From a virus (Duplodnaviria > Caudoviricetes), in the IMG/VR virus record IMGVR_UViG_3300030117_007612, positions 139,369-203,368 of that record: a DNA stretch of 64,000 nt. The stretch is one strand, 5' to 3'. How positions within the stretch are numbered: the stretch's first letter is position 1; each line of letters starts with the position of its first letter. Positions 48,197 to 62,649 of this stretch are shown here, piece after piece. The notes under the pieces were generated by a model. The model saw only the letters and a program-made list of their open reading frames with translations. It did not search any database and had not been told where the DNA came from. The position numbers were made by a program, and so were the translations under genes.

Positions 48197-48436
48197 GTGT
48201 ACCAAAAGCAACCAAAGGTCGGCGATTTAATCAGATGGATAGTCGAATACACATCTTTTTTGGCAGGTACGTGTAGTTCTAACGTAAAACCCTACAACCC
48301 TGTCTATGAGTATGGAATTGTTCTCGATATATCATCTCAAGATCCCTGCTCTGTCATTGTCTCAATGTTAAGTTGTGGTCAACTGCATGTCCTCCATCAA
48401 ATACAAGACGGTTTTGAAATTTTAAGCGAATCTTGA
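48197..48436 (+). CDS. SH3/KOW-like small protein
   Basis: PKVGDLIRW...YGIVLDI...FEILSES. Confidence 0.6.
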   Translation: MYQKQPKVGDLIRWIVEYTSFLAGTCSSNVKPYNPVYEYGIVLDISSQDPCSVIVSMLSCGQLHVLHQIQDGFEILSES

Positions 48437-48494: not shown

Positions 48495-48580
48495 GGCTGA
48501 ATGGTGGAATTGGTATACACATCAGACTTAAAATCTGACGCCCATGGGGCTTGCGGGTTCGAGTCCCGCTTCAGCTACCA
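48495..48580 (+). tRNA. trnL: tRNA-Leu(TAA)
   Basis: Acceptor GGCTGAA/TTCAGCT, anticodon arm TCAGA-CTTAAAA-TCTGA, long variable arm, TTCGA T-loop, encoded CCA. Confidence 0.95.
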
Positions 48581-48585
48581 TTTGC

Positions 48586-48660
48586 GGGTCAATAGCTCAA
48601 TGGTAGAGCACCGGGCTTTTAACCCGTAGGCTCTGGGTTCGAATCCCAGTTGACCCACCA
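48586..48660 (+). tRNA. trnK: tRNA-Lys(TTT)
   Basis: Acceptor GGGTCAA/TTGACCC, loop CTTTTAA, TTCGAAT T-loop, encoded CCA. Confidence 0.95.
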
Positions 48661-48677: not shown

Positions 48678-48770
48678 ATGAGCAAACTTAAACAGTGGGC
48701 CATAAAAGTATTTGAATGGTTGCGGGGTTTTGAAAATCCTCGTGATCGATTCCGACGTGGGGATAAATGA
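48678..48770 (+). CDS. Small hypothetical protein (30 aa)
   Basis: AAGGAG SD; MSKLKQWAIKVFEWLRGFENPRDRFRRGDK; ATGA overlap with mgtC. Confidence 0.5.
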   Translation: MSKLKQWAIKVFEWLRGFENPRDRFRRGDK

Positions 48771-49447
48771 TTGACACGGCTGCATTTGGAGTTAATGCAT
48801 TGGTTGCGCTCGGATTGAGCGCAGCGGTTGGGATTGAGCGGGAAATTCACAGCCAGCCCGCAGGTCTTCGCACTCATATTATTCTTGGTATGGGTGCGTG
48901 CCTTGCATCGGCGCTATCAATATCGTTCTCCCACGACTTTTCATCGCCACAATTTCAGAGCGATCCGGCACGAATTGTTGCACAAGTCGTGAGCGGTGTT
49001 GGTTTTTTGGGCGCTGGAGCAATTATGCGTTTTGGCGTTAACGTCAAAGGAATCACCACTGCTTCATCACTGTGGACAACAGCCATTATTGGCATCGCAT
49101 GCGGCGCAGGCTATCACGCGGCCGCAACGATAATTACAGGATTTGTTCTGTTCGCATTGGAAGTTATTAGCCGACCCGTTCGTTGGCTCTTTAAGCCTAA
49201 AAGAGTGAGAGAGTTGAAGGTGCGGTTAAACGATCGCCCTCGTATCCTCAATGATTTGCGAACCATTCTGGAATCAAAGAAGGTTAAAATTATTTCAATC
49301 TCTACGCACATCAAAGATAAGAGAAAACTTGAACTTGATTTGATTATTCAGTTGCCAAGCGACTTGCAACTTGATACATTAATTAATGTTCTAAATACAA
49401 TCCAAGACGATGAATTTTCAATGTTTATCGGAAAAGAGGAAACATAG
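48767..49447 (+). CDS. mgtC: MgtC/SapB family membrane protein
   Basis: GIERE...PAGLRTH, DPARIVAQVVSGVGFLGAGAI, GITTASSLWTTA.IG.ACG. Confidence 0.92.
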   Translation: MIDTAAFGVNALVALGLSAAVGIEREIHSQPAGLRTHIILGMGACLASALSISFSHDFSSPQFQSDPARIVAQVVSGVGFLGAGAIMRFGVNVKGITTASSLWTTAIIGIACGAGYHAAATIITGFVLFALEVISRPVRWLFKPKRVRELKVRLNDRPRILNDLRTILESKKVKIISISTHIKDKRKLELDLIIQLPSDLQLDTLINVLNTIQDDEFSMFIGKEET

Positions 49448-49523
49448 GGCTCTTAGCTCAGTTGGTCAGAGCACCCGGCTCATAACCGGATGGTCCTCGG
49501 TTCAAGCCCGAGAGAGCCCACCA
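49447..49523 (+). tRNA. tRNA with CAT anticodon (Ile2-like, or elongator Met)
   Basis: Acceptor GGGCTCT/AGAGCCC, GGCTCATAACC anticodon arm typical of tRNA-Ile2, encoded CCA; G1 paired so not an initiator. Confidence 0.9.
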
Positions 49524-49876: not shown

Positions 49877-51025
49877 ATGTCTAGACTTAAACCACAATAT
49901 ACGTCCGCAGTGACAAAACAATACAAGCAAGCGACCGCTAAAAAGCGAGTTCGCTATACCGTCGATCAGAACATCAAGGACCATCAAGATGTTGTTGACG
50001 AATTTAACGAATGGAAGGCCAAGAAAGGCCCAACCGCTGTACCATCATTTGGTGGCATATACCATGCCAGTTATGTACCAACTCTCTTTGACATACGAAA
50101 AGCAGAGATCAGAGAGGACTGGGGCCAGCGCAACTGCCTGACCGATCGCACTCGCAAGCGCAAGATCATTGGGATCGCTAAGAAATTCGATCCGATGCAG
50201 TTCCAACCACTCGATATTGATTACATTTTAGATGAGGATGTTTTCATTATTCGTGATGGTGGTGGTCGAGCCACCGCAGCTTTTTTGAACAACGTGTTCA
50301 TGGTTCCAGCATCTATCAGGATTGTGAAGAGTGTTGATGAGAGTCGTAAGCTATTCAACGCCCAAGATAAGTTCAACGCTGCCATCTCATCATACGACAA
50401 GTTCCTTCAGCAGCTACTTGACAACAAACACTCGCGTCACAAGATGGCTTGCGACACGTGGAGCATCGCCAACTCAAGCGGATTCTGTTTGGATCATCTC
50501 AACAAGAGCGCCGAAACACCACTTGTCGAAGGAATATCAACACTACAGCGCGTTATTCGCACTGTCGGTGGAGATCACAAAGACGTTGCATGGGGCAAAA
50601 AGTCTGCGCCGAACATTTCGACCGCAATTGACTTGATTAAGGCTACCTTTCAGGGTATCGACGAGATTCCCGTCTCTGCTCTTGAAGCAATCACAGCCTT
50701 TATTCACGTTAGCAAAAATCGAATACCTAACGGCGAGGAAGGACTAGCTCGACTGAAGGAATTTATGGCGCTCATACGCGATAGTTCGCCTCAGTTAAGC
50801 AAGTTAAAGAACTGGTCAACTGAGTTGTTCTTTGATTCTTCAAATAACTATGCCACTTATGGTGCGGCTGCACTCATGGCAAAGTGGAACGAGGTATTCA
50901 AGAACAAGAACAAGGGACGCACCAATTCGTATCGTTACGTCAAATGGGATAGCGATGAAATTGAGATTATCAAATACAAGATCATGCAATTTTCACGTGA
51001 CGACTCACTTTATCCTGATGCATAA
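49877..51025 (+). CDS. Hypothetical protein with ParB-like N-terminal domain
   Basis: F.P....PL.I......F.IRDGGGRA.AA...VPA; preceded by TTGACA-N16-TATACT at 49783. Confidence 0.5.
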   Translation: MSRLKPQYTSAVTKQYKQATAKKRVRYTVDQNIKDHQDVVDEFNEWKAKKGPTAVPSFGGIYHASYVPTLFDIRKAEIREDWGQRNCLTDRTRKRKIIGIAKKFDPMQFQPLDIDYILDEDVFIIRDGGGRATAAFLNNVFMVPASIRIVKSVDESRKLFNAQDKFNAAISSYDKFLQQLLDNKHSRHKMACDTWSIANSSGFCLDHLNKSAETPLVEGISTLQRVIRTVGGDHKDVAWGKKSAPNISTAIDLIKATFQGIDEIPVSALEAITAFIHVSKNRIPNGEEGLARLKEFMALIRDSSPQLSKLKNWSTELFFDSSNNYATYGAAALMAKWNEVFKNKNKGRTNSYRYVKWDSDEIEIIKYKIMQFSRDDSLYPDA

Positions 51026-51038: not shown

Positions 51039-51120
51039 GGGGGTGTATCTCCGCCGTCTTATAAGCGGTGCATTGTGGAGTAACTGGTGCATGCGGGTTC
51101 AAGTCCCGTCGCCCCTACCA
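51039..51120 (+). tRNA. Non-canonical tRNA-like RNA, anticodon TAT, lacking a D-arm
   Basis: Acceptor GGGGGTG/CGCCCCT + A + CCA; GCCGT-CTTATAA-GCGGT; T arm GCGGG-TTCAAGT-CCCGT; only 7 nt between acceptor and anticodon stems; 23-nt extra arm. Confidence 0.75.
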
Positions 51121-51544: not shown

Positions 51545-51589
51545 TTTACATTTTCTTGACTTGATTTTTTACCCATATGGTACTATATT
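51545..51589 (+). promoter_or_regulatory. Early promoter module, 11/5 variant
   Basis: TTTACA(51545), TTGACT(51556), TTGATT(51561)-N17-TATATT. Confidence 0.65.
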
Positions 51590-51609: not shown

Positions 51610-51765
51610 ATGGATTTCAACTTAGGCGACCTTGTTCAAAATCAAACCGATGGATCTGTAGGCACCGTTGAGCTTGTTGACGGCACTGCCATATGGGTTC
51701 GATGGTTTTGTGGTAGAATTAATCATCACAATTTCTTTTCACTTAAAGTTTTGGAGACAGCATGA
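51610..51765 (+). CDS. SH3/KOW-like array protein 1
   Basis: FNLGDLV...GTV...VRW...LKVLE. Confidence 0.7.
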   Translation: MDFNLGDLVQNQTDGSVGTVELVDGTAIWVRWFCGRINHHNFFSLKVLETA

Positions 51766-52016
51766 AAATTTTAACTACGTTTATTCTTGTGGGCATGGTT
51801 GACTCATTTGATAAACAGTTTGCCAGTGTTGAAATCAACACTAACCCTGCCACCAACGGCGGCCCTGCGATGGCTGTCATGCCTGTCGCTGCTTTTCCGT
51901 GTGAAATTTATGAAGGTAAAGTATTTTACGTCGTAAAGTTGCATGAAGAGCAGGATGCCGTGGTGGTATGTCAGGAGGATGTCAAAAATGAGCCCAGACA
52001 TGGAGAAACTGATTGA
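51762..52016 (+). CDS. Hypothetical protein
   Basis: 84 aa, ATGA overlap. Confidence 0.6.
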   Translation: MKILTTFILVGMVDSFDKQFASVEINTNPATNGGPAMAVMPVAAFPCEIYEGKVFYVVKLHEEQDAVVVCQEDVKNEPRHGETD

Positions 52017-52161
52017 CGAATGCATAGAAGCACACTATAATATGATTAAGCACCATAGAAGACAGATTATTGATCTCTGTAGGCGCAAGGCTACTGAAGA
52101 TAGAATTTGCATGGAGTGTTTCGATTTTGATATTATCGGCAAAAAGAAGAGCGACAAATGA
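51988..52161 (+). CDS. Hypothetical protein
   Basis: AGGAGG SD; CxxC near C-terminus. Confidence 0.5.
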   Translation: MSPDMEKLIDECIEAHYNMIKHHRRQIIDLCRRKATEDRICMECFDFDIIGKKKSDK

Positions 52162-52331
52162 AAATTGGCGATTTGGTACACAGTATTCACGATCATTCGC
52201 ACCGTGGAATTGTGCTGCAAGTAAGCAGATCCGAAGAACTTGTTGTTCGTGTTAAATGGTTTGATGGCGACGAGACACTTGAATATGGTAGGATGCTAGA
52301 GCATGTTGAGGTTTTGAGTGAAAGTCGGTGA
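52158..52331 (+). CDS. SH3/KOW-like array protein 2
   Basis: MKIGDLV...GIV...VKW..G...VEVLSESR (manual translation). Confidence 0.75.
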   Translation: MKIGDLVHSIHDHSHRGIVLQVSRSEELVVRVKWFDGDETLEYGRMLEHVEVLSESR

Positions 52332-52476
52332 TTTAGTCAAGAATAAAGTCACGGGACAAATTTGTGTTGTCATTTGGGTATATGAAACATATGGTACACA
52401 TTTTAGACTATCCGGGTTTCCTTCCAATCAAGTATTCACATCGCGCCCATGGGAGATTATAAGTGAAGGTGGGTGA
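52318..52476 (+). CDS. SH3/KOW-like array protein 3
   Basis: GTG start; MKVGDLVKNK...WEIISEGG (manual translation). Confidence 0.75.
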   Translation: MKVGDLVKNKVTGQICVVIWVYETYGTHFRLSGFPSNQVFTSRPWEIISEGG

Positions 52477-52645
52477 TTTGGTGAGGGTAAGAAATGATCC
52501 TGATGGGTGGCTTGGCATTGGTATCGTTCTTGATATTCTTCCGACCACCAAACAAGTTAAAGTGCATTGGGTTGATGAGTGGGAAGAGTGTCCGATTGAT
52601 TGGAGCACCATGTGGACATTGGAGGTTATAAGTGAAAGTAGGTGA
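52463..52645 (+). CDS. SH3/KOW-like array protein 4
   Basis: MKVGDLV...GIGIV...VHW...LEVISESR. Confidence 0.8.
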   Translation: MKVGDLVRVRNDPDGWLGIGIVLDILPTTKQVKVHWVDEWEECPIDWSTMWTLEVISESR

Positions 52646-52835
52646 CATGGTAAAAATCCAAGACTTTGATTACGATATAAACCTGCACCAAACTGAGGCA
52701 GTGGCCCGTGGAATTATTTTAGAATTTTCGCGTACCGGCCACCACACGCTTTCGGCAAAAGTGGTTTTTAATGATGGACAAGTTAAGTGGTTTGATACAT
52801 CAAGATTGGAGGTTCTAAGTGAAGGTGGGCGATAA
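52632..52835 (+). CDS. SH3/KOW-like array protein 5
   Basis: MKVGDMV...GII...LEVLSEGGR. Confidence 0.8.
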   Translation: MKVGDMVKIQDFDYDINLHQTEAVARGIILEFSRTGHHTLSAKVVFNDGQVKWFDTSRLEVLSEGGR

Positions 52836-52998
52836 AGTCAGAATGTCTCCTATGTGGAAATATGACGAGGCAACCGGCGTGATTGAAAAAATTACAGCGG
52901 ATAATTATGTAATTGTCAAATGGGATGGGATCCCCGGCCAATGGCATTACACTGAGGAACAATCAAAAAGACTGGAGAACATAAATGAAACAGAATAA
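52819..52998 (+). CDS. SH3/KOW-like array protein 6
   Basis: MKVGDKV...GVI...VKWDG...LENINE (manual translation). Confidence 0.75.
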   Translation: MKVGDKVRMSPMWKYDEATGVIEKITADNYVIVKWDGIPGQWHYTEEQSKRLENINETE

Positions 52999-53110
52999 GA
53001 ATACTTTTAAGAATGACATTACCGTATCTGAGTGTATAGCTTTAAGTGTGAGCGTGGTGGGTATAATTTCGGCACTTGGATGTATTGCATTTGCACTGTG
53101 GAGCATCTAA
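52985..53110 (+). CDS. Small single-TM protein (41 aa)
   Basis: Manual translation MKQNKNTFKNDITVSECIALSVSVVGIISALGCIAFALWSI; GGAG SD. Confidence 0.5.
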   Translation: MKQNKNTFKNDITVSECIALSVSVVGIISALGCIAFALWSI

Positions 53111-53319
53111 TGCTAAGAATTGGAGATTTGGTGCGTTACGAGAACCACACAGCAGTTGTTTTAGAAATATATCAAAGCAAGTGTTGGCGTACTGACGTGT
53201 TTGGCTCGTCTATTAGTTGGGGCAATATCGATCCTGAGCCGTTTGCGCGCATTCTCGTTGACGGCATTTTGAGAGGCGTGCCACAGACAGATTTGGAGTT
53301 GATTGGTGAAGGTCGGTGA
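53110..53319 (+). CDS. SH3/KOW-like array protein 7
   Basis: MLRIGDLV...LELIGEGR; TAATG overlap. Confidence 0.75.
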   Translation: MLRIGDLVRYENHTAVVLEIYQSKCWRTDVFGSSISWGNIDPEPFARILVDGILRGVPQTDLELIGEGR

Positions 53320-53467
53320 TCTTGTGCGACCAAAGAGCTACCAATTCCGTGATCAGATCGGAATAGTGATTGCTGTGGGTTTTATGGGAGGTGTTGGCGT
53401 GCGCTTAATGTGCGGGAGAATAGCCACCTACAACAAGGGCTCACTGGTGATTATAAGCGAAGTATAG
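53306..53467 (+). CDS. SH3/KOW-like array protein 8
   Basis: MKVGDLV...GIVI...LVIISEV (manual translation). Confidence 0.75.
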   Translation: MKVGDLVRPKSYQFRDQIGIVIAVGFMGGVGVRLMCGRIATYNKGSLVIISEV

Positions 53468-53471
53468 CGGC

Positions 53472-53516
53472 TTGACATTTTTCTGACTTGACATATGGAT
53501 CCCGCGTGACTATATT
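53472..53516 (+). promoter_or_regulatory. Early promoter module, 11/5 variant
   Basis: TTGACA(53472), CTGACT(53483), TTGACA(53488)-N17-TATATT. Confidence 0.75.
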
Positions 53517-53522
53517 ATTATT

Positions 53523-53618
53523 ATGAACACAAAAATGAAAGGATTATTGATAACAATTGGCATGATGATTGCAATTTTTGCAGTCTCATTTGCTACCACT
53601 TGGATGCTCACAACATAA
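53523..53618 (+). CDS. Small single-TM peptide (31 aa)
   Basis: MNTKMKGLLITIGMMIAIFAVSFATTWMLTT, near-leaderless after the promoter. Confidence 0.45.
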   Translation: MNTKMKGLLITIGMMIAIFAVSFATTWMLTT

Positions 53619-53626
53619 GGAAAAAC

Positions 53627-53932
53627 ATGAAACTTGTCAGAGACAACATACCGCAATTAATCAGGGGCGACGGTAAATGGTGTATAACTCGCACTGTTTG
53701 CGATTCAAACGAACACATGCAGCACCTACGAGACAAAATTATTGAGGAAGCCGATGAATTTCTCGCTCACCCATGTCACGAAGAGGCAGCCGATATGCTT
53801 GAGGTCTTGTGGGCCTTTTGCGATCTCAATAATTTTAATTGGTCTGAGGTGGTTAGAGTTGCTGAAGACAAACGACAAACGCACGGCGGGTTTGCTCGTG
53901 GGATTGTGCTACAGGAAGTAGGTGAAAAATGA
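53627..53932 (+). CDS. MazG-like nucleoside triphosphate pyrophosphohydrolase
   Basis: MKLVRDNIP, KIIEEADE, EEAADMLEV, KRQ.HGGF..G. Confidence 0.85.
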   Translation: MKLVRDNIPQLIRGDGKWCITRTVCDSNEHMQHLRDKIIEEADEFLAHPCHEEAADMLEVLWAFCDLNNFNWSEVVRVAEDKRQTHGGFARGIVLQEVGEK

Positions 53933-54204
53933 AAGTAGGTGATCTGGTCACGTTATCGACATATTCTTTACAAACCGCAGCGATGTGGAAATGGAAGCAA
54001 ATGATATGGAGTGAAAAAAAGAATCTTGTTGGTTTAATTGTTCGTATTGAGGATAATCCATGGAATCGCAAACATACGTCCAAGAATGAAAAGAAATTTT
54101 ATTATGTAAGGTGGATTCAAGATGGCCCCGGTAGTAGATTTGGAAGGACTTACCACGCTACGGACGGCTACTTTCTCAGAAACGACTTAAAGTTTTTCAA
54201 ATGA
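53929..54204 (+). CDS. SH3/KOW-like array protein 9
   Basis: MKVGDLV...GLIV...VRW. Confidence 0.75.
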   Translation: MKVGDLVTLSTYSLQTAAMWKWKQMIWSEKKNLVGLIVRIEDNPWNRKHTSKNEKKFYYVRWIQDGPGSRFGRTYHATDGYFLRNDLKFFK

Positions 54205-54563
54205 AGGATAAAATAAAAATGAATGTGAACGAGTTTTTTAAGGCCGCTGGTGCCTCTCGAAACAGACGGCTGGTGTGTGCTGATGGTTTTGAAATGAGCG
54301 TTCAAGCGCACGATGGAGCATATTGTTCTCCGCGTATTGACAATGCGGAAAAGTATACGCACGTCGAGGTTGGCTTTCCAAGCAAGAGAGAGCCGATATT
54401 GATGGATTGGGCCGAAGAAGCCAACGATCCGACAGGTACAGTGTATGGCTACGTGCCAGTGCAAGCAGTGACGAACGTGATTGCTAAACACGGGGGGATT
54501 GTCGAAGGCCAAGTGCCTCGCGGAGTGGCCCCAATTCCCGCAAACTTTACTGCTGACAAATAG
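54201..54563 (+). CDS. Hypothetical protein
   Basis: 120 aa; SVQA...YC.PR, VEVGFPS, VYGYVP motifs. Confidence 0.7.
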   Translation: MKDKIKMNVNEFFKAAGASRNRRLVCADGFEMSVQAHDGAYCSPRIDNAEKYTHVEVGFPSKREPILMDWAEEANDPTGTVYGYVPVQAVTNVIAKHGGIVEGQVPRGVAPIPANFTADK

Positions 54564-54607
54564 TTGACAACTTGAGGGTTGCAATCTGCAATAGTCAATG
54601 CTATATT
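54553..54607 (+). promoter_or_regulatory. Early promoter module, 11/15 type
   Basis: CTGACA(54553), TTGACA(54564), TTGCAA(54579)-N17-TATATT. Confidence 0.7.
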
Positions 54608-54626
54608 ATAAGAGTAAGGAGAAAAA

Positions 54627-55001
54627 ATGGGTTATCGTTCTGAAGTTATCTTGGCTGTTGGGCCTGAAGTTATGCCACAATTCATGGTTACAATGGCAAG
54701 GTGCCCCGAGGCGCGCCAAATGTGCTGGGGCGAACATGATGAAATGATCAAAGACTATTGCGGTATTAAGGGCGCGTTTCTATTCCGTTGGGATCATATC
54801 AAGTGGTACGACACCTTTGAAGAAGTTCAAGCCATCCAAGATTTTATAAGCTGGTGTGAAGATGAGCAGATTGAAGTTGATGGCAAGGAAGCCGATGCAT
54901 GCAACTATTACCGCTTTGTCCGCATCGGTGAGGAAACCGACGACAACGAGACACAGGGGTGGGGATTTGATATCCATATCGAGAGGTCAGCGACGTATTA
55001 A
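54627..55001 (+). CDS. Hypothetical protein
   Basis: MGYRSEV start, IKWY, FVRIGEE.DD.E; AAGGAG SD. Confidence 0.75.
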   Translation: MGYRSEVILAVGPEVMPQFMVTMARCPEARQMCWGEHDEMIKDYCGIKGAFLFRWDHIKWYDTFEEVQAIQDFISWCEDEQIEVDGKEADACNYYRFVRIGEETDDNETQGWGFDIHIERSATY

Positions 55002-55002
55002 A

Positions 55003-55215
55003 ATGAGTAAAGTTTTCAAAACTGGAGACTTGGTTAGGTTCACTGGTGGTGGTGGTATGTATCCAGCCGGAATGGGCCTGATTGTTAAGCGCGTGTATTC
55101 GCTGTTGCACTATACCTCTTCTCATCCCGAAGAGACGGATCTTTATGAGGTGCTGCTATCCAACGGCCATAAGATTTCAGTTCACAAAATGTACCTTCAA
55201 TTGGCTACTGAGTGA
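55003..55215 (+). CDS. SH3/KOW-like array protein 10
   Basis: FKTGDLV...GLIV...LQLATE. Confidence 0.7.
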   Translation: MSKVFKTGDLVRFTGGGGMYPAGMGLIVKRVYSLLHYTSSHPEETDLYEVLLSNGHKISVHKMYLQLATE

Positions 55216-55218
55216 ATT

Positions 55219-55494
55219 ATGAAAAAGCCACAAATTATACTTGATGATATTAATGATGAAAGGCCAAAATTCAAGGTTGGTGATCTGGTTAAGGCCAAGG
55301 CGGGGGCGATCGGCTCCGCACATGTGCCCCCGGTAAAATCAAATTGGCAGATTGGCCTAATTCTTGAAGTCGATGAATACTCAAGCAGTGAGCCGGGTCG
55401 CCGCTATTTTAAGTGGAGATATTTGGTCGCATGGCCTGATGGAACCAAGGCAAAGTATTCGGCTGGAGCCCTCGTTCCCGTCAACCGTAGATGA
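55219..55494 (+). CDS. SH3/KOW-like array protein 11
   Basis: FKVGDLV...GLI...VAWPDG. Confidence 0.7.
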   Translation: MKKPQIILDDINDERPKFKVGDLVKAKAGAIGSAHVPPVKSNWQIGLILEVDEYSSSEPGRRYFKWRYLVAWPDGTKAKYSAGALVPVNRR

Positions 55495-55545
55495 CATTTT
55501 CCTAACAAATTTATCCTTGATCTCGATAACAAACTCTGTTATATT
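55491..55545 (+). promoter_or_regulatory. Early promoter module, 11/15 type
   Basis: ATGACA(55491), CTAACA(55502), TTGATC(55517)-N17-TATATT. Confidence 0.65.
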
Positions 55546-55567
55546 ATATTTATAAAAGGGGAAAGAA

Positions 55568-56164
55568 ATGAATCGCAACTTTACAACCGAAATTGAAAAG
55601 CTGCAATTAATTGTTGAAGATAATTCATGGGCTCAGGGCTTTCTTGATAGCTTGCATTCTCAAATTAAGAACTCAAGACGTTCTCTTTCAAAAAGACAGA
55701 TTGAGGTTCTCGATAAGATCAAGGGTGAGTATACCGCCGAGGCCATGGCCGCAAAGGCAAGGTGGAATGAGGAATACCAGAACCATCACAAGACAGATGC
55801 GATCGTTGTGGCAACGTATTATGCTCACACGGGCTACTTTAAGCATGCTGCGGACTCTATTTTGAATGATGAGAGCTACGTGCCGCCTCTGAATTTGTTT
55901 AACAAGATGTGCAAAAACAAGTATGCTGTTAAGGTTCTGAGTGCATGGCATGCCCCGCCGAAATATCCTGCGGGCACCGCTGTTATGTCCCGCGCAGGCC
56001 AAAGCTGGGCACTACGTGATGGCGGCGTTGTTATCGGAACAGATGAGCCAATCATCAGCGCATCGAAGGGATGCAAGCGTTATAAGGTTTTGCCTTATGG
56101 GGCTCCCCGCCCAGTTATGTGCGAAGAGAAGTACATTAAACTTTTCCGTAAGAAGATCAAATGA
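55568..56164 (+). CDS. Hypothetical protein with C-terminal SH3-like segment
   Basis: 198 aa; helical N-terminus, KYPAG.AV...GVVI C-terminus. Confidence 0.7.
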   Translation: MNRNFTTEIEKLQLIVEDNSWAQGFLDSLHSQIKNSRRSLSKRQIEVLDKIKGEYTAEAMAAKARWNEEYQNHHKTDAIVVATYYAHTGYFKHAADSILNDESYVPPLNLFNKMCKNKYAVKVLSAWHAPPKYPAGTAVMSRAGQSWALRDGGVVIGTDEPIISASKGCKRYKVLPYGAPRPVMCEEKYIKLFRKKIK

Positions 56165-56523
56165 ATCAGTTTTACTTTGCAAAAGCATCAATTCCCCGAA
56201 GAGTGAAGGGGGCAAAATCATTACGCGAGGCCCTTGGACTATGGGGCACTGATCGCTTGCTACACGTTGCTAATTCGTGCGAATCGGCAGTTGATGATTC
56301 ATATCGGTTTGAATACGGAAGAATTCACAAACGGTATGCGAATTTTTCTTTCCTCATATCGGAAGCAATCGCCCACAATGTGATTGAATACACGGCAGAG
56401 ACTTTGTTGCTTTGGATGAAGGAGGATTTTGACGCCGCCACATCGGGAGCACAAAAAGATGCAGCAGGCATATGTGGCGCAGAACTCGCGCTAATCATTA
56501 AGAATTTTACAGACGCAGCCTGA
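56161..56523 (+). CDS. Hypothetical protein
   Basis: 120 aa, ATGA overlap. Confidence 0.55.
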   Translation: MNQFYFAKASIPRRVKGAKSLREALGLWGTDRLLHVANSCESAVDDSYRFEYGRIHKRYANFSFLISEAIAHNVIEYTAETLLLWMKEDFDAATSGAQKDAAGICGAELALIIKNFTDAA

Positions 56524-56570
56524 TCGCGCGATTTTTTTCGCCAAATTTTTCCTTTTCAGGAGACTAAACC

Positions 56571-56855
56571 ATGAAAATGACAATCGTAATTGATTCCGAG
56601 GACGGGGACGGCATTAAAAATGCGCTTGAGATTGCACGCCTGATGCACGTTAGATATGTTGGTGGTGGGGGATTCAATGGAAACAAAGAATCATTCGGAA
56701 AGATTGAGTTTATCAAGGTGCTCCGCAAATTCATGAAGGAATCTGTGGCACACCTGAAGGATGAAAAAGACGGACAAGTCAAGAGCATTGAAGATTTGGC
56801 AAACCTCCGTAATGCCAAACGATTTGCTGACCGTATCTTTTTGGGGGAGCGATGA
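56571..56855 (+). CDS. Hypothetical protein
   Basis: 94 aa, AGGAG SD. Confidence 0.7.
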   Translation: MKMTIVIDSEDGDGIKNALEIARLMHVRYVGGGGFNGNKESFGKIEFIKVLRKFMKESVAHLKDEKDGQVKSIEDLANLRNAKRFADRIFLGER

Positions 56856-57040
56856 TAAAAATAGGCGATCTGGTGACAATGCCTACCTTTGAAACGGGAC
56901 TCGTCGGCATTGTTGTTGACAAGGAACCGGCGGGCGATGGTTTTATCAAACAACAGATAGGTATACAATGGATTGGAGGATCCGGCAAAGTTGAATGGGA
57001 ACCCGAAGGCTGGATAGAGGTAATTAGTGAAAGTCGGTGA
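56852..57040 (+). CDS. SH3/KOW-like array protein 12
   Basis: MIKIGDLV...GIVV...IQW...IEVISESR. Confidence 0.8.
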   Translation: MIKIGDLVTMPTFETGLVGIVVDKEPAGDGFIKQQIGIQWIGGSGKVEWEPEGWIEVISESR

Positions 57041-57212
57041 TCTTATATCGTTCAAGCCGATTAACTTTGGTCTGGAGGATTGGTCAAATCCGTGTATTGT
57101 TATGAGCGAGTACGAAAGCCCTAACGAAGGGCTGTGGTCTGTTTGGTGCGATGGAGTCTTTTGCGTTATAGATGACACCAACTATGAAATACTGTACTTG
57201 ACAACTTCTTGA
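57027..57212 (+). CDS. SH3/KOW-like array protein 13
   Basis: MKVGDLI...CIV...VWCDG; ends inside a promoter module (LTTS*). Confidence 0.8.
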   Translation: MKVGDLISFKPINFGLEDWSNPCIVMSEYESPNEGLWSVWCDGVFCVIDDTNYEILYLTTS

Positions 57213-57252
57213 CAAGGAAAAACTTGCCGTAACCGCTTCGCGGTGTTATATT
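57198..57252 (+). promoter_or_regulatory. Early promoter module, 11/15 type
   Basis: TTGACA(57198), TTGACA(57209), TTGCCG(57224)-N17-TATATT. Confidence 0.75.
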
Positions 57253-57274
57253 ATATACATAAGAAGGAGAAATC

Positions 57275-57433
57275 ATGAAGGTGGGTGATCTGATCTGGGA
57301 TGAGGCTTATGGATCCGGTATTGTTATTGGCGTCAATGAACGAGGGGCGCAGATTGTTTTTGAAAATAATCGCATGTGCCATCTTGACCACAATCTGTTC
57401 CACACGGTAGAGGTGGTCAGTGAAAGTCGGTGA
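57275..57433 (+). CDS. SH3/KOW-like array protein 14
   Basis: MKVGDLI...GIVI...VEVVSESR (manual translation). Confidence 0.8.
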   Translation: MKVGDLIWDEAYGSGIVIGVNERGAQIVFENNRMCHLDHNLFHTVEVVSESR

Positions 57434-57581
57434 CTTGGTACGCACCAGAGCATTCCACAACTCTGGTGACACGTGGCTTGTGCTCGAAATTTCATCGAAA
57501 GTGCGCGTGCAAAGCGTTGCAACTGGTCGATGCCGCTGGATTGTGGCCTCACTACTGGAGGTGATTAGTGAAAGTGGGTGA
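57420..57581 (+). CDS. SH3/KOW-like array protein 15
   Basis: MKVGDLV...LEVISESG (manual translation). Confidence 0.8.
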   Translation: MKVGDLVRTRAFHNSGDTWLVLEISSKVRVQSVATGRCRWIVASLLEVISESG

Positions 57582-57756
57582 TTTGGTATCATTCCCTAAC
57601 TCTGTCGCAGCGCCACAAACAGGTATTGTTCTGCGAACGGAGCCGGATGGCATCGATCGCGGAACATCGCACATTCGCGTTAAAATCTATTGGTTCGAAG
57701 ATGCAGAGGTATCATGGGAGCCTGTTAAATGGTTGGAGGTTATAAATCCTTCTTGA
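57568..57756 (+). CDS. SH3/KOW-like array protein 16
   Basis: MKVGDLV...GIV...IYW...LEVINPS. Confidence 0.8.
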   Translation: MKVGDLVSFPNSVAAPQTGIVLRTEPDGIDRGTSHIRVKIYWFEDAEVSWEPVKWLEVINPS

Positions 57757-57806
57757 CATTCTCCTGACACAATCCTGATTGACTTTACCTGTGAGAATGT
57801 TATAAT
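57753..57806 (+). promoter_or_regulatory. Early promoter module, 11/15 type
   Basis: TTGACA(57753), CTGACA(57764), TTGACT(57779)-N16-TATAAT. Confidence 0.75.
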
Positions 57807-57826
57807 ATAAGGGTAAGGAGAGAGAT

Positions 57827-57982
57827 ATGAAAGTCGGCAGCTTGGTGCGTGAGACTATGGATGGCAACATTGGGGTCATCTTGGCGTGGGAGAGTGACGG
57901 CTGGCTCGTCAGCTTCCCGAAGCATGGCATGGTTTTCCACATGCTGCCGAAACTCTTGGAGGTGGTTGATGAAGCCCGGTGA
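57827..57982 (+). CDS. SH3/KOW-like array protein 17
   Basis: MKVGSLV...GVI...LEVVDEAR (manual translation). Confidence 0.8.
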   Translation: MKVGSLVRETMDGNIGVILAWESDGWLVSFPKHGMVFHMLPKLLEVVDEAR

Positions 57983-58136
57983 TTTGGTGACATGGCGCGG
58001 GGGCGTGGGAATCCTTCTCAAGCTCATATCTGACGATCCTATTGTCCGTGAAAGATACTGGCTTGTTCAGTGGTCTGATGGGGTTCGCGACACAATCCGC
58101 GAGCGTTTCTTGGAGGTGGCCAATGCAAGTCGGTGA
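57969..58136 (+). CDS. SH3/KOW-like array protein 18
   Basis: MKPGDLV...GIL...VQWSDG...LEVANASR. Confidence 0.8.
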   Translation: MKPGDLVTWRGGVGILLKLISDDPIVRERYWLVQWSDGVRDTIRERFLEVANASR

Positions 58137-58302
58137 TCTGGTAAGGTGTAAGGTAACAAAAGACCCGAATACTGTGGGGGTTGTTGTCGCTATCATCAGC
58201 GAGCCGCGATCAATTACAGGATCGCGTGTGGAAGTTCTGACGAAAGGCAAAACCCATCAGTGGTCGCCAATGCGATTGGAGGTGCTCAGTGCAAGTCGGT
58301 GA
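58123..58302 (+). CDS. SH3/KOW-like array protein 19
   Basis: MQVGDLV...GVVV...LEVLSASR. Confidence 0.8.
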   Translation: MQVGDLVRCKVTKDPNTVGVVVAIISEPRSITGSRVEVLTKGKTHQWSPMRLEVLSASR

Positions 58303-58468
58303 TCTGGTAAAAGTCAGGCGCATGTCTGGACTATACGCGCCTTTGTTTGGTACAATTGTAAAGATCAATGAGTTCGAGGATTATCGCGTGGCTATCGTTA
58401 AACCTTTCTCTGGCCCGATACAGCCCGCGCATTCGAGCGACGTGGAGGTGATAAGTGCAAGTCGGTGA
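58289..58468 (+). CDS. SH3/KOW-like array protein 20
   Basis: MQVGDLV...GTIV...VEVISASR (manual translation). Confidence 0.8.
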   Translation: MQVGDLVKVRRMSGLYAPLFGTIVKINEFEDYRVAIVKPFSGPIQPAHSSDVEVISASR

Positions 58469-58616
58469 TTTAGTTAGAGAGCCGGGTACAAATATCCTTG
58501 GCATCGTTATTGGTGAGGTATTACAAGGCTTTGATCGTTGGTTCATTAAGTGGAATAACGGAGATATGTATTCAATGAATAGTAGGCAGGTGGAATTAGT
58601 CAATGAAAGTAGGTGA
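58455..58616 (+). CDS. SH3/KOW-like array protein 21
   Basis: MQVGDLV...GIVI...IKWNNG...VELVNESR (manual translation). Confidence 0.8.
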   Translation: MQVGDLVREPGTNILGIVIGEVLQGFDRWFIKWNNGDMYSMNSRQVELVNESR

Positions 58617-58758
58617 TATTGTTGTGCAAAAAATGTGGGAAGCTGATGGTGTCGGTATCGTCATAGAGGTATGCGACGACTTTGCTGCCGTCATGTGGCC
58701 CGATGGAAAACTAAATATGTTGTTCAGCGATCTGGAGATTATCAATGCAAGTAGGTGA
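58603..58758 (+). CDS. SH3/KOW-like array protein 22
   Basis: MKVGDIV...GIVI...VMWPDG...LEIINASR (manual translation). Confidence 0.8.
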   Translation: MKVGDIVVQKMWEADGVGIVIEVCDDFAAVMWPDGKLNMLFSDLEIINASR

Positions 58759-58927
58759 TATTGTAAAGCACAAGCATGGTACGCTGCAAGGCTGGGGTGT
58801 TGTACTCAATTTGCGTGATTTGGGTCCATCGAGAGGTTGGGTACGCTCCGCATGGACCGCGCACGGTCAAACAAAGGTGCATGAACTGGCGAGCCACTAT
58901 CTGGAGGTGGTCAGTGAAAGTCGGTGA
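58745..58927 (+). CDS. SH3/KOW-like array protein 23
   Basis: MQVGDIV...GVV...SAW...LEVVSESR. Confidence 0.8.
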   Translation: MQVGDIVKHKHGTLQGWGVVLNLRDLGPSRGWVRSAWTAHGQTKVHELASHYLEVVSESR

Positions 58928-59102
58928 TCTGGTTAAGCATTTTCTGACCGAGCAGATCGGTATTGTGATGACCATTCACAACGCAGATTCAAGCCTTGGA
59001 TCTATTCAAGTGCTGTGGACAACACAGGGCGAATCTCTGTTCGGTCCCGGTCGCAAAGAGTGGTGCTGCAAAAATAGTTTAACGCTCTTGACAATTCCTT
59101 GA
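58914..59102 (+). CDS. SH3/KOW-like array protein 24
   Basis: GTG start; MKVGDLV...GIV...VLW; ends inside a promoter module (LTIP*). Confidence 0.8.
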   Translation: MKVGDLVKHFLTEQIGIVMTIHNADSSLGSIQVLWTTQGESLFGPGRKEWCCKNSLTLLTIP

Positions 59103-59141
59103 CAAAGTTTAACTTGACCTGAGCCGTCAGGTTGTTATATT
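59088..59141 (+). promoter_or_regulatory. Early promoter module, 11/15 type
   Basis: TTGACA(59088), TTGACA(59099), TTGACC(59114)-N16-TATATT. Confidence 0.8.
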
Positions 59142-60255: not shown

Positions 60256-61335
60256 ATGGCAGTCGATTTCGCAACATTCCTAAACACAGCACCTCACATC
60301 CTCAACATTGGCCTGCCTGTGCTGCTCCGTGGCCGTCACGGCGTCGGCAAATCGCAAGTGGTCTATCAAATCGCTGCTAGCCGCGATCTTCCGGTTGTTG
60401 AGCGACGGGCATCCCAAATGACAGAGGGCGATCTTCTCGGTTTGCCTGACACGGCAGACACCGAGATCAATGGTCGCAAGGCGACCACTTGGAACGCCCC
60501 TGATTGGCTGGTTGTCGCCTGTACTCAGCCCGTGCTGTTGTTCTTGGATGAGGTTGATCGTGCAACCCCGGAGGTTCGCCAAGGTCTTTTCGAGTTGACC
60601 GACAGCCGCAAGATTAATGGCTGGCACCTTCACGCGGATACGCTTGTCGTTGCTGCTGTGAACGGCGGCGAGCACGGCGCACAATACCAAGTTGGCGAAA
60701 TGGACCCGGCAGAACTCGACCGCTGGACCGTGTTCGATGTAGAGCCGTCAATCGAAGACTGGCTCAAGTGGGCCGATGGCCAAATCTCCAGCATCGTTTG
60801 GGACTTTATTAACCAGAACCATAACCACCTTGAGCATCAGGGCGAGTTTGAGCCTAACAAGGTATACCCTTCTCGCCGCTCTTGGGAGCGATTCGATAAC
60901 ACTGCTGCCCCGGCTGGTGTCTTTGAAGAGGATGGCGATCTGAATCTTCTTTTCAATCTCGCCACCGCTTTCGTTGGCTTTGAGGCAGCGGTAGCACTCA
61001 AGGATTTCGTTGAAAAGTACGAGTGGCAGGTTACAATTGAGGAACTGATTGATGAGGGCAAGATCGAGCGTGTTGCTGACTGGGGTATCAATGACCACTC
61101 GGCCATGATTGAGAAGATGCAGGCGTCAAACATCTTTGCAGATGAACTGACTGACGAGCAGGTTAATAACCTCGCTGCATACTTCGTCATCCTTCCATCC
61201 GAAGTGGCGATGAAGCTGTGGACAGTCGTTGGTGACAGTGACATTGTTGACAACTGCATCAAGCTGCACAAGGCAGAGGTTGATGGGCTCAAGGTGAGCG
61301 ATCATCTGGTGCGGATCTTGGGTGGGGCTGAGTAA
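60256..61335 (+). CDS. MoxR-type AAA+ ATPase
   Basis: Walker A GRHGVGKS, Walker B LFLDEVDR, AAVN, DPAELDRW, PSRRSW. Confidence 0.9.
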   Translation: MAVDFATFLNTAPHILNIGLPVLLRGRHGVGKSQVVYQIAASRDLPVVERRASQMTEGDLLGLPDTADTEINGRKATTWNAPDWLVVACTQPVLLFLDEVDRATPEVRQGLFELTDSRKINGWHLHADTLVVAAVNGGEHGAQYQVGEMDPAELDRWTVFDVEPSIEDWLKWADGQISSIVWDFINQNHNHLEHQGEFEPNKVYPSRRSWERFDNTAAPAGVFEEDGDLNLLFNLATAFVGFEAAVALKDFVEKYEWQVTIEELIDEGKIERVADWGINDHSAMIEKMQASNIFADELTDEQVNNLAAYFVILPSEVAMKLWTVVGDSDIVDNCIKLHKAEVDGLKVSDHLVRILGGAE

Positions 61336-61345
61336 TCAGTCACCC

Positions 61346-61399
61346 TTGACACTTCCTTGACAAACTTTCCATTGACCTTTTCCGCAGAGCGGTTATATT
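61346..61399 (+). promoter_or_regulatory. Early promoter module, 11/15 type
   Basis: TTGACA(61346), TTGACA(61357), TTGACC(61372)-N16-TATATT. Confidence 0.8.
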
Positions 61400-61419
61400 T
61401 ATAGAGTAAGGAGACAGAA

Positions 61420-62649
61420 ATGCCAGACACCAAAAAACCATTTGATCTCAACATGCACACCGCTCGCCTTCTGATGAATGAGCCTTTCTTTGCCGCGCTC
61501 TCGCGGAGCATTGAGAAGGTTCCATCAACATCGGTGCCAACGGCGGGGGTTCGTGTCAACCCTGACACGGCCCGCTTTGAACTGATGTTCAATCCTGAGT
61601 TCATGGGTGCTCTCTCTGATGCTCACAAGCTGGGTGTGCTCAAGCATGAGTTTTATCACATCATTCTGGAGCACGTGACGGGCCGGAAACCTGCTGGTGG
61701 ACTCAAGCGGATTGATAATATCGCGATGGATCTGGCCATCAATTGTCACATCGCCAACGAACTACCTAACGAGGCCAACCCCGGCCCCGTCATCAATGGT
61801 GAGCCCATGAAGGCATGCATCCCCGGCGAGGGCCTGTTCAGCCACCTGCCCCCTAACCAGACTTACGAATGGTACAGGGCCAAGCTGGAAGATGAAATGA
61901 AAGAGAGCGAAGATGGTGAAGGCGGCGAGGGCGGCGAGGGCGGCGAGCCACAGTGGGCCGATGCCGATTCGCTTGATTCGCATGACAACTTTGGCGATAG
62001 CGAGGGTACAACTAAAGAAATCGCTAAGGAGCGACTTCGCGAGTCGGTCAAGAAGGCTGCACAAGAGGCAGAGAAGGCCCGCAACTGGGGCACCGTCTCA
62101 TCCTCCATGCGTCAGTCCATCATGGAGCGCATATCTACTAAAGTAGATTGGCGCAAAGTTCTTCGATACTTCATCAAGACCTCGCAACGCTCTGACCGCA
62201 TGAGTACGCCACGCCGACTCAACAAGCGGTTCCCCAAGATTCACCCCGGCAAGCGTGTGCGTCGTCACGCCAAGATTGCAATCTCTATCGATCAGTCTGG
62301 ATCCGTCGATGATGGCATGCTGACCGCGTTCTTTTCGGAATTGAACAAGCTGGCAGAAATCGCTGAGTTTACCGTTGTGCCCTTCGATACTCGCGTGGCC
62401 GAGGATAAGGTATATACATGGAAGAAAGGCCAGTCACGGGCCACTGAGCGCGTTCTAACGGGCGGTACATGCTTCAACGCGCCAACAAAGTACGTCAATG
62501 AGCGCAATTTTGATGGTCACATCGTTCTGACCGATATGTGCGCTCCCAAGCCTATCGCAAGTCGCTGCCAACGCATGTGGATGACCACCAGCGCCTACGC
62601 ATCGCGGCCATACTTCGCAACTACCGAGCGAGTTATCTCGGTTGATTGA
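61420..62649 (+). CDS. Metallopeptidase-like plus vWA domain protein (DUF2201-type)
   Basis: HEFYH (HExxH), N.A.D..IN, acidic EGGEGGEGGE linker, MIDAS DQSGS, GGT, LTD. Confidence 0.85.
   Translation: MPDTKKPFDLNMHTARLLMNEPFFAALSRSIEKVPSTSVPTAGVRVNPDTARFELMFNPEFMGALSDAHKLGVLKHEFYHIILEHVTGRKPAGGLKRIDNIAMDLAINCHIANELPNEANPGPVINGEPMKACIPGEGLFSHLPPNQTYEWYRAKLEDEMKESEDGEGGEGGEGGEPQWADADSLDSHDNFGDSEGTTKEIAKERLRESVKKAAQEAEKARNWGTVSSSMRQSIMERISTKVDWRKVLRYFIKTSQRSDRMSTPRRLNKRFPKIHPGKRVRRHAKIAISIDQSGSVDDGMLTAFFSELNKLAEIAEFTVVPFDTRVAEDKVYTWKKGQSRATERVLTGGTCFNAPTKYVNERNFDGHIVLTDMCAPKPIASRCQRMWMTTSAYASRPYFATTERVISVD

What the first reader, a model, noticed from the sequence alone, without database searches (positions are those of the whole stretch)
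51610..59102. Cassette-like library of 24 tiny SH3/KOW-type genes joined by a conserved dual-coding repeat
Seen: 24 ORFs, mostly 50-70 aa, follow M(K/Q)VGDLV-x-G(I/V)V-x-VxW-x-LEV(I/V)SE and have very different interiors. Many are missing from the supplied ORF track. Fifteen junctions share a ~31-nt repeat that does four jobs at once: it encodes the last strand of gene n (EVISESR*), carries the Shine-Dalgarno (GGAGGT inside the LEV codons), holds the next RTG start, and encodes the first strand of gene n+1 (MKVGDLV) in a fixed 14-nt overlap. At 57827-59102 eight genes run back to back with periods of 142-169 nt, giving a repeat/unique-spacer architecture in which the spacers are protein loops. 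Inference: crossover inside the repeat would add, delete or swap whole cassettes while keeping fold, frame and translational coupling. That would make an expandable library of small binding scaffolds, expressed from early promoters and plausibly aimed at host or defence proteins. The genome encodes RecA, which could drive this. At least four more family-like genes lie elsewhere (25371, 38832, 48197, 49530). Constraint from the protein ends plus the overlap could also explain the repeat without any shuffling.
Basis: partly seen in the sequence, partly recalled or inferred. Interest (0 to 1): 0.88.

Follow-up and report, generated by a model that had tools for sequence, protein, structure and literature searches.

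The report
Shuffled array of mini SH3-like phage genes
An uncultured marine giant phage carries 24 tiny genes for one small beta-barrel protein type, joined by a short dual-purpose DNA junction. Related phages show that this junction is also where whole genes are added, lost and swapped; what the proteins do is still unknown.

Summary
Window 51610-59102 holds 24 co-oriented genes of 51-91 aa from one family. Fifteen junctions carry the ~33-nt repeat TTGGAGGTGATCAATGAAAGTCGGTGATTTGGT; fourteen overlap by 14 nt and one by 17 nt.

The window is the last 64 kb of a 203-kb IMG/VR phage record. Eighty related marine phage loci hold 768 more members, all on the coding strand, in 460 clusters.

AlphaFold models (pLDDT 90) give a five-strand SH3-like barrel, closest to the Spt5 KOW domain (Z 9.4). 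There is no Pfam hit. Orthologous cassettes are under purifying selection (median dN/dS 0.23).

The tail (S/N)(E/A)SR is a by-product of the next gene's first codons. The Glu codon in LEV is GAG 196:5 before an overlapped gene and 84:37 in terminal cassettes, which points to an embedded Shine-Dalgarno.

Three single-cassette indels between near-identical contigs break inside the repeat. The same cassette meets many different neighbours through the exact 14-nt junction. Similarity blocks end at junctions.

So shuffling at the junction is supported. Recent in-place amplification is not: only 22 of 683 members have their best hit in the same locus. Early expression, translation and host or defence targets remain inference.

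The closest known mechanism is PeSL-mediated shuffling in T4-type phages. The scan noted the same array type on another genome (e1-5378483).

The parts
51610..51765 (+). family gene 1 (51 aa, MDFNLGDLV start), first after a promoter-like site
   Evidence: profile hit E 1.9e-13; alignment A1
52158..52331 (+). family gene 2 (57 aa)
52318..52476 (+). family gene 3 (52 aa), 14-nt overlap with gene 2
52463..52645 (+). family gene 4 (60 aa), 14-nt overlap
52632..52835 (+). family gene 5 (67 aa), 14-nt overlap
52819..52998 (+). family gene 6 (59 aa), 17-nt overlap; ends its sub-array with a non-consensus tail
53110..53319 (+). family gene 7 (69 aa, MLRIGDLV)
53306..53467 (+). family gene 8 (53 aa), 14-nt overlap
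53929..54204 (+). family gene 9 (91 aa), barrel with a helical insert in the first loop; 4-nt overlap with the preceding 110-aa ORF, which has only a sub-threshold PRA-PH/MazG-type Pfam hit
   Evidence: orthologues in L019, L020, L024 and L053; Pfam on the 110-aa ORF
55003..55215 (+). family gene 10 (70 aa, MSKVFKTGDLV)
55219..55494 (+). family gene 11 (91 aa; family domain starts at about 55270)
56852..57040 (+). family gene 12 (62 aa); modelled, pLDDT 89.6
57027..57212 (+). family gene 13 (61 aa), 14-nt overlap
57275..57433 (+). family gene 14 (52 aa), first after a promoter-like site
57420..57581 (+). family gene 15 (53 aa), 14-nt overlap
57568..57756 (+). family gene 16 (62 aa), 14-nt overlap
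57827..57982 (+). family gene 17 (51 aa), first of the eight-gene run
   Evidence: 88% nt orthologue in L011
57969..58136 (+). family gene 18 (55 aa), 14-nt overlap
58123..58302 (+). family gene 19 (59 aa), 14-nt overlap
58289..58468 (+). family gene 20 (59 aa), 14-nt overlap
58455..58616 (+). family gene 21 (53 aa), 14-nt overlap
58603..58758 (+). family gene 22 (51 aa), 14-nt overlap
58745..58927 (+). family gene 23 (60 aa), 14-nt overlap
58914..59102 (+). family gene 24 (62 aa), 14-nt overlap; the most widely shared cassette (14-15 loci), usually last before the downstream 296-aa gene
48197..48436 (+). outlying family member (79 aa)
   Evidence: 24.8 bits; E 5.5e-6
51561..51589 (+). sigma-70-like promoter match before gene 1
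   Evidence: consensus scan only
54579..54607 (+). sigma-70-like promoter match with TG-extended -10
   Evidence: repeat D10
55517..55545 (+). sigma-70-like promoter match with TG-extended -10
   Evidence: repeat D6
57224..57252 (+). sigma-70-like promoter match; a short stem-loop (57232-57244) lies in its spacer
   Evidence: repeats D6 and D16
57779..57806 (+). sigma-70-like promoter match (11 of 12, TG-extended) before the eight-gene run
   Evidence: repeat D10
59114..59141 (+). sigma-70-like promoter match after the array, before the 296-aa gene
   Evidence: repeat D6

Best explanation
The region is a set of short operons in the accessory part of an uncultured marine ~200-kb phage. Each operon starts at a sigma-70-type promoter match. 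Each carries a string of independent mini-genes for one SH3-like (KOW/Tudor-type) five-strand beta-barrel, with a conserved core and very different loops and surfaces.

Consecutive genes are welded by a ~33-nt junction. Its left half encodes the last strand (L-E-V-I) and is also the GGAGGT Shine-Dalgarno of the next gene. Its middle holds the next ATG or GTG. The upstream stop TGA sits inside the next gene's GGT-GAT (Gly-Asp) codons, which gives the fixed 14-nt overlap. This layout should couple translation along the string (inferred).

Every cassette carries the same 17-24 nt of near-identical sequence at both ends. Homologous or microhomology-guided crossover there, probably by the phage's own RecA/gp32 machinery (inferred), deletes, inserts or exchanges whole cassettes. 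Frame, fold, SD and overlap are all kept.

Across the phage clade this has produced a pan-genomic pool of old cassette lineages, each under purifying selection, dealt out in different numbers and orders to different genomes.

The proteins are most likely small binding modules made early in infection against host or defence components. This last step is inference only.
For: Family and fold:
- 24 members align. The profile finds 26 hits in the 203-kb record and 768 in 80 related loci, with none on the minus strand.
- AF2 models have pLDDT 89.6 and 90.1 and five strands.
- VIA gives Z 9.4, rmsd 1.6 A over 57 residues to the Spt5 KOW domain, then PsaE, R67 DHFR and Tudor.
- 4538 clusters at 50% identity match at E<=1e-3 in 1.8 billion representatives.

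Real genes:
- Median dN/dS is 0.23 over 74 orthologue clusters, and no cluster median exceeds 1.

Junction function:
- 295 of 689 consecutive pairs overlap by exactly 14 nt.
- The Gly codon is GGT in 260 of 262 members with an upstream overlap.
- The tail residues follow from the next gene's codons.
- The Glu codon in LEV is GAG 196:5 before an overlapped gene and 84:37 in terminal cassettes (Fisher p 5e-13). Glu itself falls from about 82% to about 43%.
- An SD core is present at 231 of 269 overlapped starts. GTG starts are 49% there and about 19% at stand-alone starts.

Recombination at the junction:
- Single-cassette indels occur between near-identical contigs: L019/L070, 176 nt, flanked by a perfect 20-nt direct repeat; L042/L055, 148 nt, with a 20-nt repeat; L011/L061, 150 nt, with the crossover in GGAG|GT.
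- One cassette cluster is joined by the exact 14-nt junction to many different neighbours: 8 distinct of 9, 7 of 9, 6 of 8.
- 87% of left ends and 72% of right ends of inter-genome similarity blocks fall at the junction, against 19% and 16% expected.
- Synonymous bias persists without an upstream overlap (GGT 72% against 33% background).
- RecA (PF00154, E 9e-34) and a gp32-like SSB are encoded.
- The record has no integrase and no reverse transcriptase.
Against: - Transcription, translation and coupling were not observed.
- The promoters are consensus matches only: 26 found against 15.3 +/- 3.8 in shuffles.
- All relatives are metagenome assemblies. Some apparent recombinants could be chimeric assemblies of co-occurring strains.
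- Selection for intact overlapping genes would by itself place surviving breakpoints at junctions. So the block-boundary and neighbour statistics do not prove that homology guides the crossover.
- Exact in-register matches between junctions inside the window are short: median 7 nt, maximum 24 nt.
- One cassette insertion (L054/L055, 209 nt) has no flanking repeat.
- A second sample holds a 5.3-kb contig collinear with the window at 98.5%. The order is therefore stable over short times.
- Nothing bears on the targets of the proteins. Their pI is spread widely, with 35% below 6 and 36% above 8.5.
Confidence: 0.7

Rival explanations
1. Constraint only. The repeat exists because every gene must end with the last strand plus the SD of the next gene and begin with MKVGDLV. 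Cassette turnover comes from illegitimate recombination, and selection keeps only products with intact junctions. The repeat is not a recombination substrate.
For: Almost every position of the 14-nt overlap is non-synonymous in one of the two frames, and the tail residues are passengers. Exact matches between junctions are short, with a median of 7 nt. One cassette insertion lacks a flanking repeat.
Against: Two of the three mapped indels between near-identical contigs are flanked by 20-nt direct repeats (one perfect, one imperfect). The third crosses over inside the SD segment, and all three remove exactly one period. Random breaks would rarely restore an exact 14-nt overlap, yet dozens of different neighbour pairs have it. 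Synonymous codons of the motif stay biased where no overlap constrains them.
Confidence: 0.2
2. The proteins are nucleic-acid or ribosome/RNA-polymerase accessory factors that serve the phage's own gene expression, like KOW, Tudor or Sm-type domains. They are not a repertoire aimed at host or defence proteins. The array structure itself is as described.
For: The best structural matches are the Spt5/NusG KOW domains and the UvrD/PcrA Tudor domain, which binds RNA polymerase. 36% of members are basic, with pI above 8.5.
Against: No KOW or Tudor sequence model matches. 35% of members are acidic, and surfaces differ greatly between cassettes. Gene content differs strongly between phages whose anchor gene (window 60256-61335 homologue) is 75-80% identical, which is unusual for a core expression factor.
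Confidence: 0.2
3. Assembly artefact. The apparent shuffling and indels come from metagenome assemblers jumping between co-occurring strains at the repeated junction.
For: All comparison genomes are metagenome contigs. Contigs of other runs fragment and show loose ends exactly at junctions.
Against: The shared exact stretch is only 17-24 nt, which from my own knowledge is shorter than the k-mers most assemblers end with. Cassettes are intact and under purifying selection. Partly conserved orders recur in contigs from many independent samples. The flanks of the three indel pairs are 93-100% identical over kilobases.
Confidence: 0.05

Closest known systems
PeSL (promoter-early stem-loop) cassettes of T4-type phages (Arbiol et al. 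2010, PMC2839356; Comeau et al. 2014, PMC4122927)
   Same: Short conserved repeats bound small non-essential genes in hyperplastic regions. Insertions, deletions and replacements between close phages map to recombination between the repeats. This clade also has promoter repeats that bound an indel: a 57-nt repeat around a 561-nt insert, L056 against L055.
   Different: PeSLs are intergenic promoter-plus-terminator modules that flank unrelated ORFans. Here the main repeat lies inside coding sequence, is read in two frames, carries SD, start and stop, and joins members of a single protein family. Mini-circles have not been looked for.
Stand-alone SH3-like small beta-barrel proteins: Spt5/NusG KOW domain (4zn3, 2xhc), PsaE, R67 DfrB dihydrofolate reductase (1vie), Tudor domains, the UvrD/PcrA C-terminal Tudor domain (5dma), SPbeta prophage YorP (2heq)
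   Same: A five-strand barrel of 50-65 residues. Z is 9.4, 8.8, 8.2 and 8.1 for the top four hits, and Foldseek TM is 0.6-0.8.
   Different: No sequence-level membership: there is no Pfam hit at E<=1 for KOW, Tudor or SH3 models, and the profile against PDB gives only weak hits (best E 7e-4, HERC2). None of those proteins is known as a tandem multigene array with a fixed overlap.
Integron gene-cassette arrays
   Same: Strings of small promoterless genes behind a promoter, with cassettes gained, lost and reordered at a repeated boundary element.
   Different: The 203-kb record has no tyrosine recombinase. The boundary is a direct coding repeat, not an attC hairpin. All cassettes belong to one fold family.
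Multigene families and gene accordions of large DNA viruses (poxvirus K3L amplification, ASFV MGFs; from my own knowledge)
   Same: Tandem paralogues in accessory genome regions, thought to serve host-virus conflict, with copy number changed by recombination.
   Different: There are no recent high-identity duplicates here. No two window members share a 55% cluster, and only 22 of 683 members have their best hit in the same locus. The units are single-domain genes with a dual-coded junction.

Membership tests
SH3-like small beta-barrel fold (KOW/Tudor/PsaE type) | five antiparallel strands forming a small barrel of about 50-65 residues | tested here: met
   AF2 pLDDT 89.6 and 90.1 with five strands. 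Z 9.4, rmsd 1.6 A over 57 residues to Spt5 KOW; PsaE 8.8; R67 DHFR 8.2; Tudor 8.1.
KOW domain family (Pfam KOW and relatives) | match to the KOW sequence model | tested here: not met
   No KOW, Tudor or SH3 model at E<=1 for ten members. The profile against PDB gives only marginal Spt5/NusG hits, E 0.002-0.08.
PeSL-type shuffling cassettes | indels and replacements between close phages bounded by the repeat | tested here: met
   Three one-cassette indels have breakpoints in the junction repeat, and one 561-nt indel is bounded by a 57-nt promoter repeat.
PeSL-type shuffling cassettes | the repeat is an intergenic sigma-70 promoter plus a terminator stem-loop | tested here: not met
   The junction repeat is coding and holds SD, start and stop but no promoter. 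Promoter-like repeats occur only at sub-array starts. Terminator-like sites are not enriched: 4 found against 7.3 expected.
PeSL-type shuffling cassettes | excised mini-circles | not testable with these tools
   This needs PCR or long reads on phage DNA.
Integron | IntI tyrosine recombinase | tested here: not met
   PF00589 has no match in the 203-kb record, while the controls were positive.
Integron | attC imperfect inverted-repeat recombination sites | not tested
   The boundary found is a direct repeat. I made no dedicated attC search.
Diversity-generating retroelement | reverse transcriptase with a template/variable repeat pair | tested here: not met
   PF00078 has no match. The variation consists of old lineages under purifying selection, not targeted mutation.
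Gene accordion / recent tandem amplification | near-identical tandem copies within one genome | tested here: not met
   No two window members share a cluster at 55% identity. The closest tandem pair in any locus is 84% identical at the nucleotide level.

The most novel reading that the evidence does not exclude
These abundant marine phages keep an integrase-free cassette system. It is a pan-genomic pool of thousands of mini SH3-like binders, exchanged and re-dealt by homologous crossover at a dual-coding junction that also ensures each newly placed cassette is translated. The system serves as a fast-changing counter-defence or host-takeover repertoire, and amounts to a natural combinatorial scaffold library.
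Probability: 0.3. Interest if true: 0.85.

Novelty: new variant of a known kind. Interest (0 to 1): 0.7.

Why it matters
- It shows one short sequence serving at once as protein end, ribosome-binding site, start, stop, protein beginning and recombination site. That explains how a phage can re-deal whole genes without breaking expression.
- It defines a very large protein family with no name in any source (4538 clusters at 50% identity; no Pfam model) in a clade of phages common in ocean metagenomes.
- If the proteins are binders of host or defence factors, the pool is a ready source of small natural inhibitors and of a compact, loop-tolerant scaffold.
- It extends the PeSL idea of boundary-repeat shuffling from intergenic regulatory modules to coding, dual-frame junctions.

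Tried and rejected
- Megablast of the array and tblastn of one member against INPHARED phages found nothing. Core genes reach only 26-31% identity to cultured phages.
- Pfam gave no hit for members. PHROGs gave only weak hits to families of unknown function.
- Pfam and PHROGs left the interspersed non-family genes unnamed.
- The search for related loci could not use alignment A1. The 198-aa internal gene gave no relatives.
- The upstream 382-aa gene proved a poor anchor, because it sits elsewhere in relatives.
- In read laying on four marine runs, most joints have sides of 20-33 letters. These are the junction repeat matching other phages' cassettes, so I do not count them as recombinants.
- No RNA holder was listed in either run search.
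- The host search with the MgtC-like gene in genome contigs found nothing.
- Two literature searches for a described family or array of this kind found none. Two marine jumbo-phage papers do not mention it.
- Rejected readings: integron (no integrase); DGR (no RT); recent gene accordion; minus-strand ORFs such as 56564-57181 as real genes (no profile hit on that strand, and purifying selection acts in the plus frames).

Full report
WHAT IS THERE

The window is the last 64 kb of a 203,368-bp IMG/VR virus record, rated 100% complete by CheckV. All long ORFs lie on the plus strand. The phage encodes:
- a DnaE-type polymerase, a DnaB-like helicase, a class II ribonucleotide reductase and GroEL;
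- RecA, a gp32-like SSB, UvdE and a flap endonuclease.

It has no close cultured relative.

Between 51610 and 59102 the ORF list and repeat finder show 24 plus-strand ORFs of 51-91 aa and a 35-nt direct-repeat family of 16 copies. The 24 align with the pattern MKVGDLV, G-I-V, V-x-W, G, L-E-V-I at 18-33% pairwise identity. A profile built from them recovers each at E 1e-8 to 1e-17. It finds two weaker members elsewhere in the record and none on the minus strand.

Fifteen junctions overlap, fourteen by 14 nt and one by 17 nt. The run at 57827-59102 holds eight genes with periods of 142-169 nt. Of its four extra members only 48197 is clear and 25371 is marginal.

THE FAMILY IS LARGE, REAL AND UNNAMED

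A conserved MoxR-like ATPase gene just downstream (60256-61335) fetched 80 related IMG/VR loci at 59-80% protein identity. Many come from contigs of 185-205 kb. The profile finds 768 members in them, every one on the coding strand. They fall into 460 clusters at 55% identity or more.

A full scan of 1.8 billion representative proteins gives 4538 clusters at E<=1e-3. Most are stand-alone proteins of 50-70 aa. Where a source names a member at all, it is only 'hypothetical protein', from marine metagenomes. Pfam has no model for the family.

Orthologous cassettes have a median dN/dS of 0.23 over 74 clusters. No cluster median exceeds 1, and mean dS is about 1. These are protein-coding genes in old lineages, not hypermutating loops.

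FOLD

AlphaFold2 with family alignments gives pLDDT 89.6 for the 62-aa member and 90.1 for the 91-aa member. Both have the same five strands. The longer one adds a helix in the first loop.

The exhaustive structural search puts the Spt5 KOW domain first (Z 9.4, rmsd 1.6 A, 57 residues). PsaE, R67 dihydrofolate reductase and a Tudor domain follow. Foldseek adds HspQ, the UvrD/PcrA Tudor domain and prophage YorP. The best viral matches are unnamed small proteins. The fold claim holds, but membership of the KOW sequence family does not.

HOW THE JUNCTION IS BUILT

Across the clade 295 of 689 consecutive pairs overlap by exactly 14 nt. The consensus is TTGGAGGTGATCAATGAAAGTCGGTGATTTGGT.

- The upstream stop TGA lies in the next gene's GGT-GAT. 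With an upstream overlap the Gly codon is GGT in 260 of 262 cases.
- The tail residues are the other-frame reading of the next gene's start codons. S or N follows from GTG or ATG. E or A follows from AAA or CAA. S or G follows from AAA or AAG. R or G follows from the Val codon's third base. Accordingly, cassettes with no family gene overlapping them by exactly 14 nt downstream carry much more varied tails.
- The Glu codon of L-E-V is GAG 196:5 when an overlapped gene follows and 84:37 in terminal cassettes (p 5e-13). Glu itself is then much less frequent. The background ratio is 57:43. This is direct sequence evidence that GGAGGT is kept as a Shine-Dalgarno.
- An SD core precedes 231 of 269 overlapped starts. 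GTG is as common as ATG there but rare at stand-alone starts, which fits coupled re-initiation.

Some nucleotide conservation is left unexplained. Members with no upstream family gene still use GGT (72% against 33% background), GTC (52% against 24%), AAA (77% against 33%) and G/A-ending Leu codons.

IS THE JUNCTION A RECOMBINATION SITE?

Four lines of comparison bear on this.

(1) Near-identical contig pairs differ by single cassettes.
- L019 has 176 nt more than L070. The insert is flanked by a perfect 20-nt direct repeat that begins at the start codon, and L070 keeps one copy.
- L042 has 148 nt more than L055, with a 20-nt repeat across the SD and start.
- L011 has 150 nt more than L061, with the crossover inside GGAG|GT.
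- A fourth cassette insertion (L054) has no repeat. A 561-nt non-family insert is bounded by 57-nt promoter repeats.

(2) Ordered cluster strings show a partly conserved backbone (3 .. 14 .. 2 .. 5 .. 36 .. 1 next to the downstream 296-aa gene), with cassettes inserted, missing or replaced. The window carries six cassettes where relatives carry cluster 5.

(3) The same cluster is joined through the exact 14-nt overlap to almost as many different neighbours as there are genomes: 8 of 9, 7 of 9 and 6 of 8.

(4) Ends of similarity blocks between genomes pile up at the junction: 87% and 72%, against 19% and 16% expected.

No integrase and no reverse transcriptase are present. RecA is present.

Together these make crossover within the repeat the best explanation. 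Selection for intact overlapping genes would produce lines 3 and 4 as well. All the genomes are metagenome assemblies.

WHAT THE DATA DO NOT SUPPORT

- Rapid in-place expansion is not seen. No two window members share a cluster. Only 22 of 683 members have their best hit in the same locus. The closest tandem duplicates are 84% and 72% identical.
- Cassette order is stable over short times. A second sample holds a 5.3-kb contig collinear with 52240-57587 at 98.5%.

The 'library' therefore exists mainly at the level of the phage pan-genome.

EXPRESSION AND FUNCTION

Sigma-70-like matches with a TG-extended -10 precede each sub-array. They are consensus matches only, and no RNA data were available.

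Family pI ranges widely, and loops differ in sequence and length. This fits diverse binding surfaces. The accessory location, the high turnover between close phages and the purifying selection on each lineage resemble early host-takeover or counter-defence genes. This is inference, at about 40% confidence.

COMPARISON WITH KNOWN SYSTEMS

The nearest mechanism is PeSL-mediated modular shuffling in T4-type phages (PMC2839356, PMC4122927). The difference is that the repeat here is a dual-frame coding junction within one protein family. Integrons, DGRs and gene accordions each fail a defining test.

The scan's first readers noted the same array in this genome (e1-5411281) and in another genome (e1-5378483).

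VERDICT

This is a new variant of a known kind. Interest 0.7.

Noticed in passing
window 48767-49447: The phage encodes an MgtC-family protein with a C-terminal ACT domain (PF02308, E 7e-36), next to a tRNA cluster (Leu-TAA and Lys-TTT at 48495-48660; Met at 49447-49523).
   Followed up: partly
window 49877-51025; L006:10001-11149: This 382-aa ORFan sits between the gp32-like SSB and RecA in a 75%-identical relative. In the window it lies about 34 kb away from those genes. It is either a moved gene or a genome rearrangement.
   Followed up: partly
L056:298-915 versus L055:9895-9951: A 561-nt insert of non-family small ORFs is bounded by a 57-nt direct repeat that is itself a promoter (two TTGACA boxes plus TGTGGTATAAT). 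This is a PeSL-like cassette in the same phage clade.
   Followed up: partly
L048:3181-3411 versus L047:3404-3411: A 223-nt indel is bounded by the 8-nt repeat TTTACATT. It carries a 38-aa ORF and what looks like the 3' end of a tRNA (GTTCGATTC ... CCA).
   Followed up: no
P0001, P0002, P0003, P0008, P0019: Relatives exist as multi-domain proteins. One has 2380 aa and 14 family-like stretches. One of 370 aa has five tandem domains with acidic linkers. Several two-domain proteins of about 127 aa read as in-frame fusions across a former junction.
   Followed up: partly
window 60256-62649: A MoxR-like AAA ATPase (PF07728) is followed by a DUF2201 VWA-like metallopeptidase. The ATPase has more than 4000 close protein clusters in marine data, and one of them is filed under a Euryarchaeota MAG.
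   Followed up: partly
window 52000-58000: GC skew is markedly higher in the array (0.15-0.24) than in the first 30 kb of the window (0.02-0.12). A second high-skew stretch (0.18-0.20) lies at 32-36 kb, outside the array.
   Followed up: no
family start codons across all loci: Leu and Val codons after the overlap (GAT-YTR-GTN) are strongly biased, although no second frame constrains them. GGTGATC also matches the complement of the 16S rRNA 3' end (my own knowledge).
   Followed up: partly
window 51039-51120: ARAGORN did not call the D-armless tRNA-like element that another first-reader note describes here.
   Followed up: partly
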